Below, one piece after another: positions 2,598-22,838 of a stretch of DNA of 24,000 nucleotides. Position numbers and translations under genes: made by a program. Below the pieces are notes generated by a model, which worked only from the letters and a program-made list of their open reading frames with translations, ran no database searches and had not been told where the DNA came from. The stretch's first letter is position 1. Each line of letters opens with the position of its first letter. Source of the DNA: Candidatus Saccharimonadota bacterium (GTDB lineage Bacteria > Patescibacteriota > Saccharimonadia > Saccharimonadales > UBA4665); NCBI GenBank assembly GCA_037200105.1, contig JBBCHN010000003.1:53987-77986 (forward strand), in the 5' to 3' direction.

Positions 2598-2717
2598 TTT
2601 GTTTCCTTTTTTGTTTTTCGTCGACTTCTATATCTTACTGGGAACAACACCGTAATAGCAAATAGTTATCCACAAGCACGTTGGCCTACTTAAGCACAAG
2701 CTGCAATAATATTAACT

Positions 2718-3184
2718 ATGATAAACAAATAGCGAACGAGAGTATCCGTCCAACCAAGAAACAACGAGAGCTACTTAACTTATTGAAAACTTTATTAACG
2801 AGCATGGCTATAGCCCTAGCTATAGAGAAATAATGTCAGGCTTAAACTACAACTCAGTAGCTACTGTTGCATTACATGTAAACAACTTGATGAAACGTGG
2901 TCATCTAAAGAAAAGAGATCACTCGGCCAGAAGCCTAGAAGTTATTAGCACTGAATCACCAGTTAAGGTTTCAAGCAATTATGTGGCTCCAGGCGAGGAG
3001 AAGTGGGCTGGTTGAGAAAGTTGAGAGTGCTTTTAATGATATTGAAAAACTTGGTAACAATATCAAGGAAACTAGCATTGATCATCTCTATGTACTAGTC
3101 GGTGCCTTAAAAGTACTAGAACTTCACGGCGCAGCTCAAAGTTTTATGCCTAGATTAAGCTCGCTAAAGCAAAAAACTAGATAG
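2718..3184 (+). CDS. LexA-N-terminal-domain (winged helix) transcriptional regulator, no peptidase domain; about 3 apparent frameshifts
   Basis: ...RPTKKQRELLN / IENFINEHGYSPSYREIMSGLNYNSVATVALHVNNLMKRGHLKKRDHSARSLEV matches the LexA DNA-binding domain pattern (T.KQ.E.L.FI......GY.PS.REI......S...V..HL..L..KG.I.R). The pieces lie in three frames, with breaks near 2730, 2775 and 3000. The C-terminal helical part is ORF 2981..3184. The start codon is uncertain: ATG 2718 requires one frame correction. Confidence 0.6.
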
Positions 3185-3261
3185 CTAGTTTATAGTCAAA
3201 AATACTATATCTAGCGTAGGCACTTAAGTGCTAGACTCTATATACCTTAACAAATAAAAAA

Positions 3262-3360
3262 GCTGGAAGAGGGGGTGAAACTCCCACACTGTGCCGCAAC
3301 GGTAATCGTTTATACGTAAGTCCGATACAGCAAATTAAGCCTCCCGAGCAGGAGCGAAGT
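3262..3360 (+). promoter_or_regulatory. cobalamin (B12) riboswitch-like aptamer, short class-II-like architecture
   Basis: Conserved core elements occur in the correct order: GGUGAAACUCC (3274-3284), CUGU-GCCGCA-ACGGUAA (3289-3305; compare CGCAGCGGUAA in the E. coli btuB leader) and a B12-box-like AAGUCCGAUACAGC (3318-3331). The terminal CAGC of the B12-box pairs with GCUG at 3262-3265. Identified by eye only. Confidence 0.6.
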
Positions 3361-3374
3361 TAACGAAAAATCTC

Positions 3375-3401
3375 AATCCTAGCTCGGAGCTAGGATTTTT
3401 T
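3375..3401 (+). terminator. intrinsic terminator (riboswitch expression platform)
   Basis: Perfect 10-bp stem AATCCTAGCT / AGCTAGGATT with loop CGG, followed directly by further T residues. The upstream segment CTCCCGAGC (3341-3349) is complementary to GCTCGGAG (3382-3389), which would give an alternative antiterminator pairing. Confidence 0.75.
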
Positions 3402-4733
3402 ATGTCACTTTCGAGCATGGAGTATCAGTCGCAACCACAACCAATGGAGGCTATTGTGGTGCCAATGATTTTATAGACAGACAAGAAGTCGAGACAATTG
3501 CCTGGAATCTAATTGATCAACGGAATCAGTTACCGAAAATTGAAGTAGAACTCAGGAACGTCGAGATAACGCCCGAACTGCCATCATGGAAGCTCTTACT
3601 GCTTCAGGACACCTATCGTCAGTAGAAATTAACGGTACATTTGATGAAATCAATGCCAGATTTTAAATCGCTTACTCAATGGTTGGGATGAATCCCTACC
3701 TGGGCACGAAAAGGATCGCCGCTTTGCAGAGCTTTGTAATGAACTGGTTATACAACGTGTCCATCATTTAATGATCGAAGGTTTTCTACCACCAGATACC
3801 GAGGTTTGTGAAATCTCAGATTATCCTGAAGCCTTAAGAGGACTTTCTTTAGGCTACCGAGATACAAACAAGAAAGGTATGGTTCGTACAACTGGCTTAG
3901 TTAGTCATGGTGATGGTCGCTATACCAGAGTCATTGAACAGGTTAGTCGTAGTAATGGATCTCAGCCTAGCACCTTTAATTTCTTGGGCAGCATTAATAT
4001 ACAAACAGAGAATAAGGCACGGATATTTCAGCTCTTGAAGCACCATCGATCTATTCCCGTCACGATTATGTCGATGGTGTAGTTGATGTCATGAAACGAC
4101 TGGACTACTACTCTGGCTCCGGAGTTATGTACGGAGATGATGATGAGCGGGTAGCTAAACATCCAGCCTACGAAAATCTACGTGAGGAGTCCGCAAGACG
4201 TGAGGAAGAGATGCTTTGCTACGTAGACGATCTAGCCGATTTAGAGGAGCAGCTAGACCAAGAACTAACTACAAAAGAGGAAGCCATGGAAATATATAAA
4301 GGTGAAGTCGAAAGAATTCTCAATGCTATTGCACTCTCAATCCGGGCTATACGGAAGATACTTTTGGCCCAGCAATGGTACAAGTCTTTGAGCAGGTTTC
4401 GGTTCTAACAGCACAAGGTCGCAATCAGGAAGCAATGATTTTACTACAAGACAACAATCATCTTAAGGAAACTGTAACTTTTTGTGGTATTTCAATTTCA
4501 GCTGAAAAAGCCAGTGAGATGGGACTAAGGTTAATAGCTATGGCCAACTAGTAGAAAAGGGCAAGGACAGTTGGAAATGGAAACAGGGTACTTGCGTAGT
4601 AAAAAGCTGCTCTACTAGGCCGGGCAAAACCGAAGTTGGTCCCTGTAGTGTCTGTAAGAGTTGTCAAAGAGACTTTGATAAAGGTAGAGACCCAACTAAA
4701 AAAAGCAGCGTAAAATATAAGCATGGATGTTAA
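3402..4733 (+). CDS. hypothetical protein(s) of unknown family; most simply one ~440 aa gene broken by at least 5 frame changes, with a C-terminal Cys-rich module
   Basis: Consecutive open segments in alternating frames join end to end:
- ...HGVSVATTTNGGYCGANDFIDRQEVETIAWNLIDQRNQL...
- RRDNARTAIMEALTASGHLSSVEINGTFDEINARF
- LLNGWDESLPGHEKDRRFAELCNELVIQRVHHLMIEGFLPPDTEV... (track ORF 3771..4082)
- GTDISALEAPSIYSRHDYVDGVVDVMKRLDYYSGSG... (ORF 4091..4408)
- NPGYTEDTFGPAMVQVFEQVSVLTAQGRNQEAMILLQDNNHLKETVTFCGISISAEKASEMG
- VEKGKDSWKWKQGTCVVKSCSTRPGKTEVGPCSVCKSCQRDFDKGRDP... with stop at 4731-4733.
No TM helix, signal peptide or Walker motif was seen, and I do not recognise the family. Confidence 0.35.
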
Positions 4734-4899
4734 CGCTGATATTGATCCTTACGAGGAGTTAGTTAAGGAGAAATCTCCTTATCTATTTTGTGATGCCTGT
4801 GGCTTTTACCCAATAGAACCACTACATGGTCATTTCGTTTGTCCAAGCTGTTATTTTCAAACCAGATGTTGCGAGGGAGCGCCACTAGATGAAAGCTAG
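4723..4899 (+). CDS. small zinc-ribbon protein (58 aa), below the ORF-track length cutoff
   Basis: ATG 4723 to TAG 4897-4899: MDVNADIDPYEELVKEKSPYLFCDACGFYPIEPLHGHFVCPSCYFQTRCCEGAPLDES. It has CxxC...CxxC plus CC. It overlaps the end of the upstream locus by 11 nt and the nadD start by 11 nt, which suggests translational coupling. Confidence 0.45.
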   Translation: MDVNADIDPYEELVKEKSPYLFCDACGFYPIEPLHGHFVCPSCYFQTRCCEGAPLDES

Positions 4900-5480
4900 A
4901 AAGATAGGTATTTACGCAGGTAGCTTTGATCCTATTCATTTAGGCCATATAACTTTTGCGCTTCAAGCAATTGAGCAGGCTGGTTTGGACAAGGTTTACT
5001 TTCTGCCGGAGGAGAGCACCACAAGATAAGTTCATCTACGAACACTTTGGTCACCGTGTAGCTATGATTAAAACCTCAATTAAGCCTCACTCCAAACTAG
5101 ACCTACTGGAGCTAGATAATAAGACATTTAGCGTTAGCAAAACTTTGCCTGCACTTGAGAGAATCTTTAAAAACTCGAAGCTAGTTTTTCTGTTTGGATC
5201 AGATAAAGCAGCGGGCTTAATGGACTGGCCTAACGCTAGTAGACTATTTGACTTAAGCGAGATCGTCATTGGTTTAAGGGAAGGCTCGAGCTCAAAGAGT
5301 ATAGAGATAGACTGCAAGAACTGGCCTAAGCAACCAATTAAAATTATTGAGAGCTATAACCCAACTCTACTATCAACAGAAATTCGTCAGTCACTTCAAA
5401 GTGGTCAGGCGGCTCAAGGTCTAGCTAAAAGTGTAGCTGCATATATTAGACAAAATTGGCTATACATTTCTATACCTTAG
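4889..5480 (+). CDS. nadD: nicotinate-nucleotide adenylyltransferase; one apparent frameshift near 5008-5015
   Basis: MKARKIGIYAGSFDPIHLGHITFALQAIEQAGLDKVYFLPE carries the GxFDPxHxGH nucleotidyltransferase motif. After a 1-nt shift it continues in ORF 4956..5480 (RAPQDKFIYEHFGHRVAMIK...LVFLFGSD...). Confidence 0.8.
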
Positions 5481-13805: not shown

Positions 13806-14893
13806 ATGTCATCTTCAATTTCTTGCGGTATAGTCGGTTTACCTAATGTTGGTAAATCAACCCTGTTTAACTGCTTAACTAGGGCTGGTGCGCTAGTCGC
13901 TAACTACCCTTTCGCCACTATTGATCCTAATGTCGGCATTGTTGAAGTTAGTGACGAGCGGCTAAGAGTTTTAGCTAAAATGTTTGATTCAGACAAAATA
14001 GTACCAGCTACGCTTAGTGTTACAGACATTGCTGGACTAGTAGCTGGAGCCAGTAATGGTGAGGGTCTAGGCAACCAATTCTTAAGTCACATTCGGTCTT
14101 GTAAAGCCATAGTCCAAGTAGTGCGGGCATTTGAGGATAGCTCAGTTACTCATGTAGATAATGATCATAACCCTAAGAAAGATATTGAAGTTAATTAATA
14201 CTGAGCTTGTACTGGCTGATCTAGAGACAATAGATAAGCGAATAGCTAAAGTCCAAAAAGAAGCTAAGGCTAATCCTAAACTTGCTGGACTAGTAGCTCA
14301 GTACATTAAAGCTAAGGAAATACTGGATACAGGCGAACCGCTCTGGAATGTTGGTGAGGATTTTGAAGAGCTAAATTGATCTGCAGCTACTAACACTAAA
14401 ACCAGTGATCTACCTATTTAATATGGATGAGGCTGGACTGGCTGATGAGAATAAAAAGAAAGAGCTAGCCGCAATAGTTGCACCTACTCCCTGCTTATTT
14501 ATATGCGCCAAATTAGAAGCCGAGCTAAGTGAGCTAGACGAGGAGGATCAAAAGGAACTGCTGCTTAGTTACGGACAAAATGAATCTGCCCTTATTAAGC
14601 TGACTAAGGAGCTATATAAGCTACTTGGACTTCAAAGTTATCTAACGGCTGGTAAAACAGAGGTTAGAGCTTGGACTATTAAGCAAGGATCCAGTGCCCC
14701 ACAAGCAGCAGGTGCCATACATACAGATTTTGAACGAGGCTTTATAGCAGCTGATGTCGTTAGCTACCCCGACCTTATAGAAGCCGGCTCTCTAGTATCA
14801 GCCAAATCAGCCGGCAAAGTTAGAACAGAAGGCAAAACCTACATCGTTAAAGACGATGACATTATTGAATTCAAGTTCAATGTTTCTAAATAG
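13806..14893 (+). CDS. ychF: ribosome-binding ATPase YchF (Obg-family GTPase); 2 apparent frameshifts near 14195 and 14378
   Basis: [16 protein letters not shown] (G1), [31 protein letters not shown] (G3). The reading continues across three track ORFs (13806..14198, 14161..14379, 14405..14893). It ends with the TGS-like domain: [31 protein letters not shown]. Confidence 0.9.
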
Positions 14894-21386: not shown

Positions 21387-22838
21387 CTAGATCTCAAGTA
21401 TAGGTTTAGCGACAATAGTTTGCTTATTAGTCTTGTCACTATCAGTAACTTTCTTAGGTTGATGTATAACAAGTACAGCTAGTAATGCTGCAAATACCAT
21501 GAAGACTAAGCCAACTAGAATACTTACATCAAAGCCATGAACAAGCGCTGCTAGTTTTACTTAAGTGAACAGCTGCAGCAGTTACAGAAGCGGCAATGCC
21601 TGAGAGAATTGATAGACCTAAAGCCCCGCCCATCTGTTGGGAGGTAGTTATTAGCCCAGATGCTAGCCCAGACTCTTGAGGACGAACCCCTGATGTTGCA
21701 GCTGCTATAACTGGCATAAATGTCATACCTATGCCTATTGGTATAACAATTAAGGCTGGTAACAGGTTGAATAGGTAATTACCGTGTACAGGTAAACGAC
21801 TTAGCCAGATTAACCCTAGCCCAACAATTAGTGGTCCGGCTATTAAGAACCGCTTAAAGCCATACCTAGCTACAAGTTTTGGCATCCGGGTAGCCACGAA
21901 GCCTAAGACTATCGGCATTGGCAAGAAAGCTAGTCCAGTTTGAACTGGAGAATAATGAAGTACAAGTTGCAAGTATAGGGTTATTACGAAGAATAAACCT
22001 AACATGGTGGCATACATTGGCGCCATTATAAGGTTAGCTCCAGATACGTTTCGGATCTTAAATATAGATAGTGGAACAAGCGGATGTTTGGTTCTAGATT
22101 CATTGAATATAAATCCGGCCATTAAGACTATCGACTAGACCAAAGATGCTTAGTGTCGATGCGCTTAACCAGCCCCAACTTGATGCTTGGCTAAAGGCGA
22201 AGACCGTAGACATTAAACTGCCCGTAACCCAGCACCGCTCCTGGTAAATCTAGACCCGTGTACTTATCTTCCCTCTCATGCAGAGGTACAAAAGCAGCTA
22301 TTAGGATAGACATGATGATACCTATAGGTACATTTATAAAGAAGTTCCAACGCCAACCTATGTACTGAGTGATAACTCCACCAAGCAGTAGACCTAGTGC
22401 TGCTCCACCGGTTGCTACTAGTGTCCAATAACCAATGGCTCGGTTTCTACCAGGTCCGTCTCTAAAGGTAGTTAGAACAATAGATAGAGCTGCTGGGGAC
22501 ATAAAAGGCTGCAGCCATACCCTGGAAAGCTCTTAGAGCTATTAATAATACTGAGGAGTGGGATATACCAATTAAGAAAGAGAATGTAGTGAAAGCAATC
22601 ATGCCGCTAAGCAACGTTCTTCGTCTACCAAATAGGTCAGCTGCCCTACCACCAAGTAGCAAGAAACCACCAAATGTAAGAGCGTAGGCAGTAACAACCC
22701 ATTGCAAAGCACTGTTAGTAAAATGCAGCTGTTCTTTTATGGTTGGCAATGCAACGTTAGTAATTGCGCTGTCTAGAACCACATAAATTGAGCGATTGCT
22801 ACCAGTGTAAAAACAAGCCACTTTGATGTTGATTTCAT
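21387..22838 (-). CDS. MFS transporter, DHA2 (EmrB/QacA-like, 14-TMS) drug:H+ antiporter family; at least 4 apparent frameshifts
   Basis: MKSTSKWLVFTLVAIAQFM / VVLDSAITNVALPTIKEQLHFTNSALQWVVTAYALTFGGFLLLGGRAADLFGRRR (DHA2 motifs) ...AFQGMAAAF / MSPAALSIVLTTF...RNRAIGYW...GWRWNFFINVPIG... continues through track ORFs 22462..22821, 22191..22502 and 21529..22122. The C-terminal tail ends with a stop at 21387-21389. Confidence 0.85.

What the first reader, a model, noticed from the sequence alone, without database searches (positions are those of the whole stretch)
3262..3401. Cobalamin-riboswitch-like leader with terminator/antiterminator switch in a CPR-like genome
**Aptamer.** Three hallmark elements of the B12 aptamer occur in the right order and spacing:
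- GGUGAAACUCC at 3274-3284
- the CUGU/ACGG helix closed by GCCGCA and followed by GGUAA at 3289-3305
- a B12-box-like AAGUCCGAUACAGC at 3318-3331, whose 3' CAGC pairs with GCUG at 3262-3265

The short distance between GGUAA and the B12 box suggests the compact class-II architecture.

**Expression platform.** Downstream there is a perfect 10-bp terminator hairpin followed by a T-run (3375-3401). CUCCCGAGC (3341-3349) can pair with the apical terminator sequence GCUCGGAG (3382-3389), which is a classic mutually exclusive platform.

**Why it matters.** Organisms of this type are not expected to synthesise corrinoids, and the controlled genes are of unknown function. The element may therefore point to a new B12-related function such as uptake, binding, salvage or a B12-independent isozyme.
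Basis: partly seen in the sequence, partly recalled or inferred. Interest (0 to 1): 0.7.

Follow-up and report, generated by a model that had tools for sequence, protein, structure and literature searches.

The report
B12 riboswitch before unknown Saccharibacteria operon
This is a genuine vitamin-B12-sensing RNA switch of the compact (class-II) type, which most likely stops transcription when B12 is plentiful; the switch is an ordinary kind, but in Saccharibacteria it always sits in front of a conserved protein of unknown function and unrecognised fold that is followed by the NAD enzyme NadD.

Summary
All the motifs sit at the stated coordinates, and the terminator at 3375-3397 with its T-run is confirmed.

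**Rfam.** No family reaches its gathering score in the window. The best match is AdoCbl-II (RF01689) at 3247-3338: 28.5 bits against a threshold of 36.5, E = 1.2e-4, over the full model.

**Related genomes decide it.**
- The downstream gene is about 450-470 aa and is broken by at least six frameshifts in this window. It is intact in 19 Saccharibacteria genomes.
- All 20 related loci that hold upstream sequence carry the same leader.
- Six of these leaders pass Rfam thresholds.
- On 50 sequences aligned to my own model, 96% of cells pair and 14 of 19 pairs show compensatory changes.

**Other copies.** Copies of the same RNA type precede NrdD, a PduO-type adenosyltransferase, a BtuF-like binding protein, CobG-like and DUF4430/DUF6580 genes.

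**Mechanism (inferred).** B12 binding lets L5 kiss L13 and fixes hairpin P13, so the terminator forms; the terminator also buries the ribosome-binding site. Without B12, the P13 sequence pairs with the terminator's 5' arm and transcription reads through.

**Novelty.** The RNA is a new member of a known kind. The controlled protein has no Pfam, NCBIfam or PDB relative, and nadD follows it.

The parts
3246..3250 (+). P1 5' strand (CUUAA); overlaps the conserved TTAACAA motif at 3247-3253
   Evidence: Complementary to UUAAG at 3335-3339 (sequence). The Rfam alignment places P1 here. P1 is only partly conserved in the orthologs.
3251..3261 (+). J1/3, an A-rich joining region
   Evidence: Position in the AdoCbl-II model alignment. 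Class-II riboswitches have a J1/3 element (PMC6158498).
3262..3265 (+). P3 5' strand (GCUG)
   Evidence: Pairs with 3328-3331. All 4 pairs show compensatory changes across 50 sequences.
3266..3270 (+). J3/4 (GAAGA; GAA in most relatives)
3271..3287 (+). P4 with loop L4 (UGAAACU, T-loop-like); one G-A mismatch, 3272 with 3286
   Evidence: 4 of 5 pairs are compensatory and 98% of cells are paired.
3290..3298 (+). P5/L5 (UGU-GCC-GCA); UGCCG at 3292-3296 is the proposed kissing-loop strand
   Evidence: CUGUGCCGCAAC is invariant in all 20 orthologous leaders that were found through the protein. The kissing interaction is inferred.
3300..3324 (+). P6 (CGG at 3300-3302 with CCG at 3322-3324), enclosing a mini-hairpin at 3307-3316
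   Evidence: The middle pair covaries, GC in 27 sequences and UA in 18. The region inside P6 varies in length among orthologs.
3318..3331 (+). B12-box-like J6/3 (AAGUCCGAUA) followed by the P3 3' strand (CAGC)
   Evidence: Aligned to GUCcGAGcGCCaC of the AdoCbl-II model and conserved among relatives.
3335..3339 (+). P1 3' strand (UUAAG)
3341..3354 (+). P13 hairpin (CUCC / GGAG) with loop L13 (CGAGCA, 3345-3350)
   Evidence: All 4 pairs show compensatory changes. In 44 of 50 sequences the loop is CGAGCA or differs from it only at the middle base.
3341..3389 (+). Antiterminator: 3341-3353 pairs with 3377-3389
   Evidence: It is the lowest-energy fold of the platform, -19.6 kcal/mol, and it forms as soon as base 3387 has been transcribed. 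The same complementarity is seen in the orthologs.
3375..3401 (+). Intrinsic terminator: 10-bp stem, 3-nt loop, T-run
3392..3404 (+). Ribosome-binding site (AGGA, 3392-3395) inside the terminator's 3' arm, and the start codon ATG at 3402-3404
   Evidence: Sequence. Read by eye in three ortholog leaders printed: in L002, L005 and L011 a purine-rich stretch in the terminator's 3' arm lies just before the start codon.
3402..4730 (+). Controlled gene: a conserved protein of about 450-470 aa with unknown function, here split over at least six frame changes
   Evidence: Six fragments match the family profile. It aligns end to end with the intact relative P0002. The family has no Pfam or PDB match.
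4723..4899 (+). Small Cys-rich ORF (58 aa) between the unknown gene and nadD
   Evidence: The same motif, CxxC...HGHxxCPxC...CC, occurs at the same position in L002, L003, L016, L020, L043 and L051.
4889..5480 (+). nadD (nicotinate-nucleotide adenylyltransferase), split by one frameshift
   Evidence: The intact ortholog in L017 reaches TIGR00482 with 120.5 bits against a cut-off of 112.45.

Best explanation
Window 3246-3401 is a cobalamin (corrinoid) riboswitch of the compact class-II type, joined to an intrinsic-terminator expression platform. It works as an OFF switch.

**With corrinoid bound.**
1. The four-way-junction aptamer (P3-P6, closed by P1) binds the ligand.
2. Loop L5 (UGCCG, 3292-3296) pairs with loop L13 (CG-A-GCA, 3345-3350).
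3. This fixes hairpin P13 (3341-3354).
4. The terminator (3375-3397 plus its T-run) is then free to form. Transcription ends before the ATG at 3402.
5. In any full-length transcript the same hairpin buries the ribosome-binding site AGGA (3392-3395).

**Without corrinoid.** The weak P13 hairpin loses to the antiterminator, in which 3341-3353 pairs with 3377-3389. The operon is then transcribed.

**What it controls.** An operon conserved across Saccharibacteria: a protein of unknown function of about 450-470 aa, sometimes a small Cys-rich protein, and nadD.

**Shown here.** The RNA family, its structure and its conservation; the terminator; the mutually exclusive pairings; the link to the gene.

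**Inferred.** Ligand identity and form, the kissing loop, and the direction of regulation.
For: **Family assignment.**
- Rfam's best family is AdoCbl-II, matched over the full model at E = 1.2e-4.
- Orthologous leaders pass the gathering score of RF01689 in L011 (43.1 bits), L017 (39.4), L018 (39.4), L021 (38.2) and L019 (38.1). L009 passes RF00174 with 34.4 bits.
- All 20 loci found through the protein that have upstream flank carry the element.

**Structure.**
- 23 sequences: 97.2% of cells paired, 11 of 19 pairs compensatory.
- 50 sequences: 96.3% paired against 72.2% in shuffles, 14 of 19 pairs compensatory, and at most 47% paired when the partners are slid.

**Ligand, by association.** Matches to the same model precede these genes:
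- NrdD and a likely NrdG (by its Cys motif; not scanned)
- a PduO-type adenosyltransferase
- a Peripla_BP_2 binding protein and a likely BtuC-type membrane permease (judged from its sequence; not scanned)
- CobG-like and likely precorrin genes (named from their N-terminal sequence)
- DUF4430 and DUF6580

**Expression platform.**
- The terminator is found by the scan.
- The antiterminator is the lowest-energy fold at -19.6 kcal/mol. P13 plus terminator gives -17.0, and P13 alone -4.1.
- In 17 of 19 orthologs with a recognisable terminator, the P13 region is far more complementary to the terminator's 5' arm (-11 to -22 kcal/mol) than to shuffled arms (-4 to -8). This holds although the terminator sequences differ.

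**Kissing loop.** That paper gives the L5 consensus as UCCCG. L5 here is UGCCG, and L13 (CG-N-GCA) carries the matching change. The bulged base varies: A in most, G in L004, U in L014.
Against: - The window copy itself is 8 bits below the RF01689 gathering score and was not reported in gathering mode.
- P4 has a G-A mismatch. J3/4 is 2 nt longer than in most relatives.
- The window is full of frameshifts, so the RNA sequence may carry indel errors. Alternatively the locus may be decaying.
- The leader as a whole does not fold unusually well (z = -1.4).
- L5 and L13 are nearly invariant within this set, so the set gives no covariation for the kissing loop.
- No ligand binding or termination was measured.
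- nadD is normally essential, so B12-dependent shut-off of its operon is puzzling unless termination is leaky or nadD has its own promoter.
- The alignments used for pair counts were fitted to the model, which favours the structure.
Confidence: 0.88

Rival explanations
1. The aptamer is as described, but control is mainly translational. The hairpin at 3375-3397 acts chiefly to hide the ribosome-binding site (AGGA, 3392-3395), not to terminate transcription. Alternatively both levels act together.
For: - The purine-rich site lies inside the 3' arm of the hairpin, 6 nt before the ATG.
- The same arrangement is seen by eye in three ortholog leaders printed: GAGGG in L005, AGGAG in L011 and AGCAGG in L002, each before the start codon.
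- The class-II riboswitches studied so far, such as env8HyCbl, are translational (PMC10327014).
- L012 and L018 (second copy) lack a recognisable terminator.
Against: The hairpin is followed directly by a run of 5-7 U in the window and in most orthologs. That is the signature of an intrinsic terminator and is not needed for hiding a ribosome-binding site.
Confidence: 0.3
2. The RNA belongs to the cobalamin-riboswitch clan by descent, but this Saccharibacteria subgroup senses a different ligand or a special corrinoid form. The subgroup is marked by the invariant L5 (UGCCG) and L13 (CGAGCA). That could explain the odd target genes, an unknown protein and nadD.
For: - Many copies score below the Rfam thresholds.
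- L5 departs from the published UCCCG consensus.
- The main target operon has no known B12 link.
- Class-II members are known to differ widely in selectivity between AdoCbl and MeCbl (PMC6158498).
Against: - RNAs with the same L5/L13 pair and matching the same model precede classic B12-regulon genes: NrdD, PduO, a BtuF-like protein, CobG-like and DUF4430.
- The conserved core nucleotides of the binding site align with the cobalamin model.
Confidence: 0.07
3. In this particular genome the element is a relic. The controlled gene is a pseudogene with at least six frameshifts, so the riboswitch no longer regulates anything useful.
For: The downstream gene, nadD and the upstream LexA-like gene are all frameshifted. 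The aptamer has a mismatch in P4 and a low Rfam score.
Against: - Frameshifts also hit genes for core functions across the window: ychF, pilB, an MFS transporter and nadD. That points to indel errors of a long-read assembly, not decay of one locus.
- The closest related contigs, L001 and L002, show the same kind of breaks.
- All helices and the platform are intact.
Confidence: 0.1
4. The resemblance to a B12 aptamer is a chance match next to an ordinary terminator.
For: There was no match at the gathering threshold, and the fold energy is unremarkable.
Against: - Conservation at the same position in 20 of 20 loci with upstream flank.
- Six orthologs above the gathering score.
- Compensatory changes in 14 of 19 pairs.
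- E = 1.2e-4 for the window copy.

Confidence: 0.01

Closest known systems
AdoCbl-II / class-II cobalamin riboswitch (Rfam RF01689, clan CL00101; type example env8HyCbl)
   Same: - P1, J1/3 and a P3-P6 four-way junction.
- GGAA-type J3/4 and a T-loop-like L4.
- A short P6 without the large class-I extension.
- A B12-box J6/3.
- An L5 loop with a complementary L13 loop downstream.
- A full-length model match; five orthologs pass the gathering score.
   Different: - The window copy scores 28.5 bits, below the threshold of 36.5.
- L5 is UGCCG, not the UCCCG consensus, and L13 is the fixed CGAGCA.
- The platform is a transcription terminator, whereas the studied class-II examples act on translation.
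- Some orthologs carry insertions of more than 100 nt in P6 or in L4.
- The host is a Saccharibacterium.
Priestia megaterium metE repressing corrinoid riboswitch (PMC10327014)
   Same: The regulatory logic is the same. The L5-L13 kissing loop stabilises P13. [quoted passage not shown] P13 alone is weaker than the antiterminator.
   Different: - Here the whole of L13 and both sides of P13 take part in the antiterminator.
- The terminator also contains the ribosome-binding site.
- The controlled gene is not a known B12-independent isozyme.
Cobalamin riboswitch RF00174 (class I)
   Same: Same clan and the same core. L001, L002, L009 and L016 score best on this model.
   Different: The window copy lacks the P7-P11 peripheral extension and fits RF01689 better.

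Membership tests
Class-II cobalamin riboswitch (RF01689 AdoCbl-II) | Curated Rfam gathering score. This is an operational threshold, not a structural feature. | tested here: not met
   The window copy scores 28.5 bits against 36.5, E = 1.2e-4, over the full model 1-81. Orthologous leaders at the same genomic position do pass: L011 43.1, L017 39.4, L018 39.4, L021 38.2 and L019 38.1 bits.
Class-II cobalamin riboswitch (RF01689 AdoCbl-II) | Four-way junction of P3, P4, P5 and P6, supported by covariation | tested here: met
   On 50 sequences 96.3% of cells pair. P3 has 4 of 4, P4 4 of 5, P5 1 of 3 and P6 1 of 3 pairs with compensatory changes. Slid controls pair at no more than 47%.
Class-II cobalamin riboswitch (RF01689 AdoCbl-II) | Conserved core sequences: GGAA-type J3/4, L4 UGNAAHU, and the B12 box in J6/3 | tested here: met
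   These are aligned to the model consensus and conserved across 50 relatives.
Class-II cobalamin riboswitch (RF01689 AdoCbl-II) | No large peripheral extension (P7-P11) on P6 | tested here: met
   In the window only 19 nt lie between the P6 strands, with a 3-bp mini-hairpin. Some orthologs (L006, L010) have long insertions here.
Class-II cobalamin riboswitch (RF01689 AdoCbl-II) | P1 helix and a J1/3 element | tested here: inconclusive
   The window has a 5-bp P1 (3246-3250 with 3335-3339) and an 11-nt J1/3. P1 is clear and covaries in one clade of orthologs (L011, L013-L015, L018, L019). It is weak or mismatched in others (L003, L005, L008).
Class-II cobalamin riboswitch (RF01689 AdoCbl-II) | [quoted passage not shown] | tested here: inconclusive
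   UGCCG (3292-3296) and CG-A-GCA (3345-3350) can form 5 pairs with one bulge. The two loops co-occur in 44 of 50 sequences, and the bulged base varies. Both loops are nearly invariant, so the set gives no covariation. The change relative to the UCCCG consensus is matched in L13.
Class-II cobalamin riboswitch (RF01689 AdoCbl-II) | Binds a cobalamin | not testable with these tools
   Only indirect evidence: matches to the same model precede NrdD, PduO, Peripla_BP_2, CobG-like and DUF4430/DUF6580 genes.
Intrinsic (Rho-independent) terminator | A G+C-containing hairpin followed directly by a run of U | tested here: met
   10-bp stem with 4 G-C pairs, a 3-nt loop and then TTTTAT. Orthologs have equivalent hairpins with U-runs.
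Terminator/antiterminator expression platform | An alternative pairing that excludes the terminator and competes with a ligand-stabilised helix | tested here: met
   In the window the antiterminator is the lowest-energy fold and forms before the terminator's 3' arm is made. Complementarity is conserved in 17 of 19 orthologs although the terminator sequences differ.

The most novel reading that the evidence does not exclude
The riboswitch marks an unrecognised protein superfamily with a B12-related job.

**The superfamily.**
- It appears to be largely confined to Saccharibacteria and related CPR-type bacteria.
- It shows a confidently predicted fold with no detectable relative.
- It has an invariant Cys-Gly in a flexible loop and a C-terminal Cys-rich or zinc-ribbon tail.
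- It is often co-transcribed with nadD.

**Possible jobs.**
- A B12-independent replacement enzyme made when B12 is scarce.
- A corrinoid-processing or trafficking factor.

**A wider group.** Several other unknown proteins behind the same riboswitch type share the Cys-Gly loop and the zinc-ribbon tail. They may be distant members of this superfamily.
Probability: 0.5. Interest if true: 0.8.

Novelty: new member of a known kind. Interest (0 to 1): 0.55.

Why it matters
**What it says about the organisms.** Saccharibacteria are ultrasmall epibionts with almost no biosynthesis. A B12 sensor conserved across the group implies that they monitor corrinoid supply, presumably obtained from the host or the community.

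In related contigs the same RNA type controls:
- a likely uptake pair (DUF4430 and DUF6580)
- an adenosyltransferase
- the B12-independent reductase NrdD

**The handle on an unknown protein.**
- A family with 482 clusters at 50% identity has no annotation and no structural relative.
- It is tied to B12 status and to nadD.
- Riboswitch-controlled genes of unknown function have repeatedly led to new transporters and enzymes.

**Practical uses.**
- This subgroup often falls below Rfam thresholds, so standard annotation will miss many copies.
- A native ligand-controlled switch could serve genetic tools in Patescibacteria, which a recent perspective asks for (PMC11665869).

Tried and rejected
- **Other genetic codes.** Reading UGA, UAG or UAA as sense did not mend the short ORFs. 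The breaks are frameshifts.
- **Phage origin.** No blastn match of 2600-4900 in the phage collection.
- **Function of the protein.**
  - Pfam and NCBIfam gave nothing for the family, for ten distant members or for seven other unknown downstream proteins.
  - A PDB profile search gave only a chance FliG match at E = 0.07.
  - Foldseek of a high-confidence model (pLDDT 91) against PDB and BFVD gave no match better than E = 0.1, with TM-scores of at most 0.15 on the query.
Rejected, because orthologs with ACUG at that place cannot form it, whereas P6 covaries.
- **TTAACA as a -35 box.** Rejected, because no -10 box follows it. In several orthologs a TAYAAT box lies 6-9 nt upstream, so the motif is probably the 5' end of the transcript.
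- **Literature.** Searches for a B12 riboswitch in Saccharibacteria or Patescibacteria found no report.
- **Automatic terminator finder.** It picked a wrong hairpin for the window and failed for L006, L012 and the second copy in L018. I evaluated the window separately.

Full report
**1. The observation**

- GGTGAAACTCC at 3274-3284
- CTGTGCCGCAACGGTAA at 3289-3305
- AAGTCCGATACAGC at 3318-3331
- GCTG at 3262-3265, complementary to CAGC at 3328-3331
- CTCCCGAGC at 3341-3349 and GCTCGGAG at 3382-3389
- a perfect 10-bp hairpin, 3375-3384 with 3388-3397

The hairpin is followed by a T-run that runs into the ATG at 3402. The terminator scan finds it independently.

**2. Direct test against Rfam**

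- At gathering thresholds nothing in the 24-kb window matches any of 4227 families.
- In E-value mode on 3100-3550, the best match is AdoCbl-II (RF01689) at 3247-3338. It scores 28.5 bits against a gathering score of 36.5, with E = 1.2e-4, and covers model positions 1-81 of 81.
- So the window copy is a significant match but below the threshold.
- The leader as a whole does not fold unusually well (z = -1.4).

**3. State of the window**

The window has 41% G+C. It carries Saccharibacteria-type genes, including a sortase and a type-IV pilus ATPase.

Many genes are split between reading frames:
- the LexA-like gene upstream (2681-3184)
- nadD (4889-5480)
- ychF, pilB and an MFS transporter

Alternative genetic codes do not repair this. 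Breaks in genes for core functions across the window fit an assembly with indel errors better than decay of this one locus. The riboswitch sequence may therefore also contain small errors. For example, its J3/4 is 2 nt longer than in most relatives, next to a G5 run.

**4. The downstream gene**

- Pieces in six reading-frame segments between 3402 and 4730 join into one protein of about 454 aa.
- It aligns end to end with the metagenomic protein P0002.
- A protein-guided scan of one genome per species found 19 loci. Nearly all are from records titled Saccharibacteria or Saccharimonadales, and 18 of the 19 genes are intact; L021's is split in two.

**5. Conservation of the leader**

- All 20 loci with upstream flank carry the invariant CUGUGCCGCAAC, a B12-box-like AGYCMGAY, and the hairpin CUCC-CGAGCA-GGAG just upstream of the gene.
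- L020 is the one locus without upstream flank.
- Five leaders pass the RF01689 gathering score: L011 43.1, L017 39.4, L018 39.4, L021 38.2 and L019 38.1 bits. L009 passes RF00174 with 34.4 against 31.5.
- L001, L002 and L016 fall just below RF00174, at 28.4, 30.5 and 29.9 bits.
- By Rfam's own criterion the element at this genomic position is therefore a cobalamin riboswitch. The window copy is a weaker-scoring member.

**6. Structure**

I built a covariance model from ten compact leaders with helices P3, P4, P5, P6 and P13. It finds 23 copies in the window and the first 21 loci. It finds 36 more in metagenome contigs that were fetched with the pattern CTGTGCCGCAACNGT.

| Set | Cells paired | Pairs with compensatory change | Controls |
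|---|---|---|---|
| 23 sequences | 97.2% | 11 of 19 | 78.1% in shuffles |
| 50 sequences | 96.3% | 14 of 19 | 72.2% in shuffles; at most 47% when partners are slid |

In the 50-sequence set, 225 cells carry a change on both sides, against 72 expected from shuffles.

Caveats:
- The alignments were fitted to the model.
- The metagenome set was selected for one L5 sequence.
- The set found through the protein was not selected on RNA sequence.

- The CUGU/ACGG helix is not conserved. The real helices are P5 (3290-3292 with 3296-3298) and P6 (3300-3302 with 3322-3324).
- P1 is CUUAA (3246-3250) with UUAAG (3335-3339). It is convincing in some orthologs and weak in others.

**7. Is the ligand a corrinoid?**

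Matches to the same model, mostly with the same L5 and L13 loops, lie in front of classic B12-regulon genes:

| Locus | Genes behind the riboswitch |
|---|---|
| L087 | NrdD (Pfam) and a likely NrdG (by its Cys motif; not scanned) |
| L075 | a PduO-type cobalamin adenosyltransferase, then a second riboswitch and an unknown protein of 468 aa |
| L023 | a Peripla_BP_2 (BtuF-like) lipoprotein and a likely BtuC-type membrane permease (judged from its sequence; not scanned) |
| L059 | a CobG-like protein, followed by likely precorrin genes (named from their N-terminal sequence) |
| L018 (a Saccharibacteria MAG) | a secreted DUF4430 protein and a DUF6580 membrane protein, then a second riboswitch and the unknown family |

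This is association, not a binding test. It does make a non-corrinoid ligand unlikely. Which form is sensed (AdoCbl, or MeCbl/HyCbl) cannot be read from the sequence, because class-II members span the whole range of selectivity (PMC6158498).

**8. Expression platform and mechanism**

Energies for the window's platform, 3336-3404:

| Structure | Energy (kcal/mol) |
|---|---|
| Lowest-energy fold, which pairs 3344-3353 with 3377-3387 (antiterminator) | -19.6 |
| P13 plus terminator | -17.0 |
| P13 alone | -4.1 |

- The antiterminator forms as soon as base 3387 is transcribed, before the terminator's 3' arm exists.
- In 17 of 19 orthologs with a recognisable terminator, the P13 region pairs with the terminator's 5' arm at -11 to -22 kcal/mol. 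Shuffled arms give -4 to -8. This holds although the terminators differ in sequence.
[quoted passage not shown] The kissing loop:
- L5 UGCCG (3292-3296) can pair with L13 CG-A-GCA (3345-3350) over five pairs, with one bulged base.
- The bulged base varies: A in most, G in L004, U in L014.
- L5 differs from the published UCCCG consensus at one position, and L13 carries the matching change.
- I therefore infer an OFF switch.

The purine-rich AGGA (3392-3395) lies inside the terminator's 3' arm, 6 nt before the ATG. I saw the same layout by eye in three ortholog leaders (L002, L005, L011). So the hairpin probably blocks translation as well.

**9. What is controlled**

- The family has 148 hits in the 90%-identity collection.
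- It has 482 clusters at 50% identity at E ≤ 0.001 in the larger library.
- All hits that carry a name are called hypothetical.
- It has no Pfam or NCBIfam domain and no relative among PDB sequences.
- An AlphaFold model built from 87 sequences is confident, with pLDDT 91 and pTM 0.88.
- Foldseek finds nothing in PDB or BFVD; the best E-value is 0.1 and TM-scores on the query are at most 0.15.
- Conserved features:
  - many conserved Arg, Lys, Ser and Glu residues;
  - an invariant Cys-Gly (C365-G366 of P0005) in the only low-confidence internal loop;
  - a C-terminal motif, C-x4-C-x11-C-x2-C-x2-C.
- nadD follows the gene directly, often overlapping it, in the window and 19 related loci. The L017 ortholog passes TIGR00482.
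- A 58-aa Cys-rich ORF sits between the two genes in the window and six loci.
- Several other unknown proteins behind this riboswitch type also end in a zinc-ribbon-like motif preceded by a small G/S-C-G/P loop. They too have no Pfam match. I noted this shared pattern by eye.

The function remains unknown. An OFF switch predicts a role needed when B12 is scarce. That could be a B12-independent substitute enzyme, or corrinoid acquisition and processing.

**10. Literature**

I found no report of a cobalamin riboswitch in Saccharibacteria or Patescibacteria in the held library.

**11. Verdict**

The RNA is a new member of a known class, and members of this subgroup often fall below Rfam thresholds. 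The interest lies in the conserved, uncharacterised operon it controls and in what this implies for B12 dependence in these reduced bacteria.

Noticed in passing
window 2681-3184, 3402-4730, 4889-5480, 13806-14893, 21529-22821 and elsewhere: Many genes are split between reading frames: the LexA-like gene, the unknown gene (six segments), nadD, ychF, pilB and an MFS transporter in three pieces. Changing the genetic code does not help. This looks like indel errors of a long-read assembly. L001 and L002 show the same kind of breaks.
   Followed up: partly
window 3247-3253: A TTAACAA motif (TT[ACG]ACA) lies 5' of the aptamer in 21 of 22 leaders. In one clade it is the 5' strand of P1. In another clade P1 is formed by different bases, yet the motif is still there, 6-9 nt after a TAYAAT box. 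It is probably the 5' end of the transcript. Its role is unexplained.
   Followed up: partly
window 3200-3245: An upstream block resembling AATACTAYAT...CTACTAG recurs in several orthologous leaders (L003, L004, L007, L017). It could be a promoter or an operator. The gene upstream has a LexA DNA-binding domain, and a similar protein C-terminus precedes the leader in L001, L002 and L012.
   Followed up: no
window 4723-4899: A small Cys-rich ORF of 58 aa (CxxC...HGHFxCPxC...CC) sits between the unknown gene and nadD. It is conserved at the same place in L002, L003, L016, L020, L043 and L051. It has no family match.
   Followed up: partly
L018 3344-6446: Two riboswitches occur in tandem in a Saccharibacteria MAG. 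The first precedes a secreted DUF4430 protein and a DUF6580 membrane protein, a candidate B12 uptake pair. The second precedes the unknown family.
   Followed up: partly
L075 6894-7937 (minus strand): Two riboswitches occur in tandem. The first precedes a PduO-type cobalamin adenosyltransferase. The second precedes an unknown 468-aa protein with a C-terminal zinc-ribbon-like tail.
   Followed up: partly
L030, L035, L044, L046, L047, L061, L075, L100, L101 (first ORF after each riboswitch): Unknown proteins of 300-500 aa without a Pfam match (L047 and seven others were scanned; L061 and L100 were not) share a short G/S-C-G/P loop and, 30-90 residues later, a CxxC...CxxC tail at the very C-terminus. 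This echoes the FCG loop and Cys-rich tail of the window's family. They may form one wide superfamily. This was seen by eye.
   Followed up: partly
L006 4512-4670; L010 4620-4723; L013, L014, L015, L049, L078 (L4): Some orthologous riboswitches carry insertions of 100-160 nt inside P6, or structured insertions of 10-30 nt in loop L4. Peripheral elements are therefore gained and lost within this one lineage.
   Followed up: no
window 3392-3404: The ribosome-binding site lies inside the terminator's 3' arm and the T-run abuts the start codon. One hairpin could therefore act on transcription and on translation. Three orthologs checked by eye (L002, L005, L011) share this layout.
   Followed up: partly
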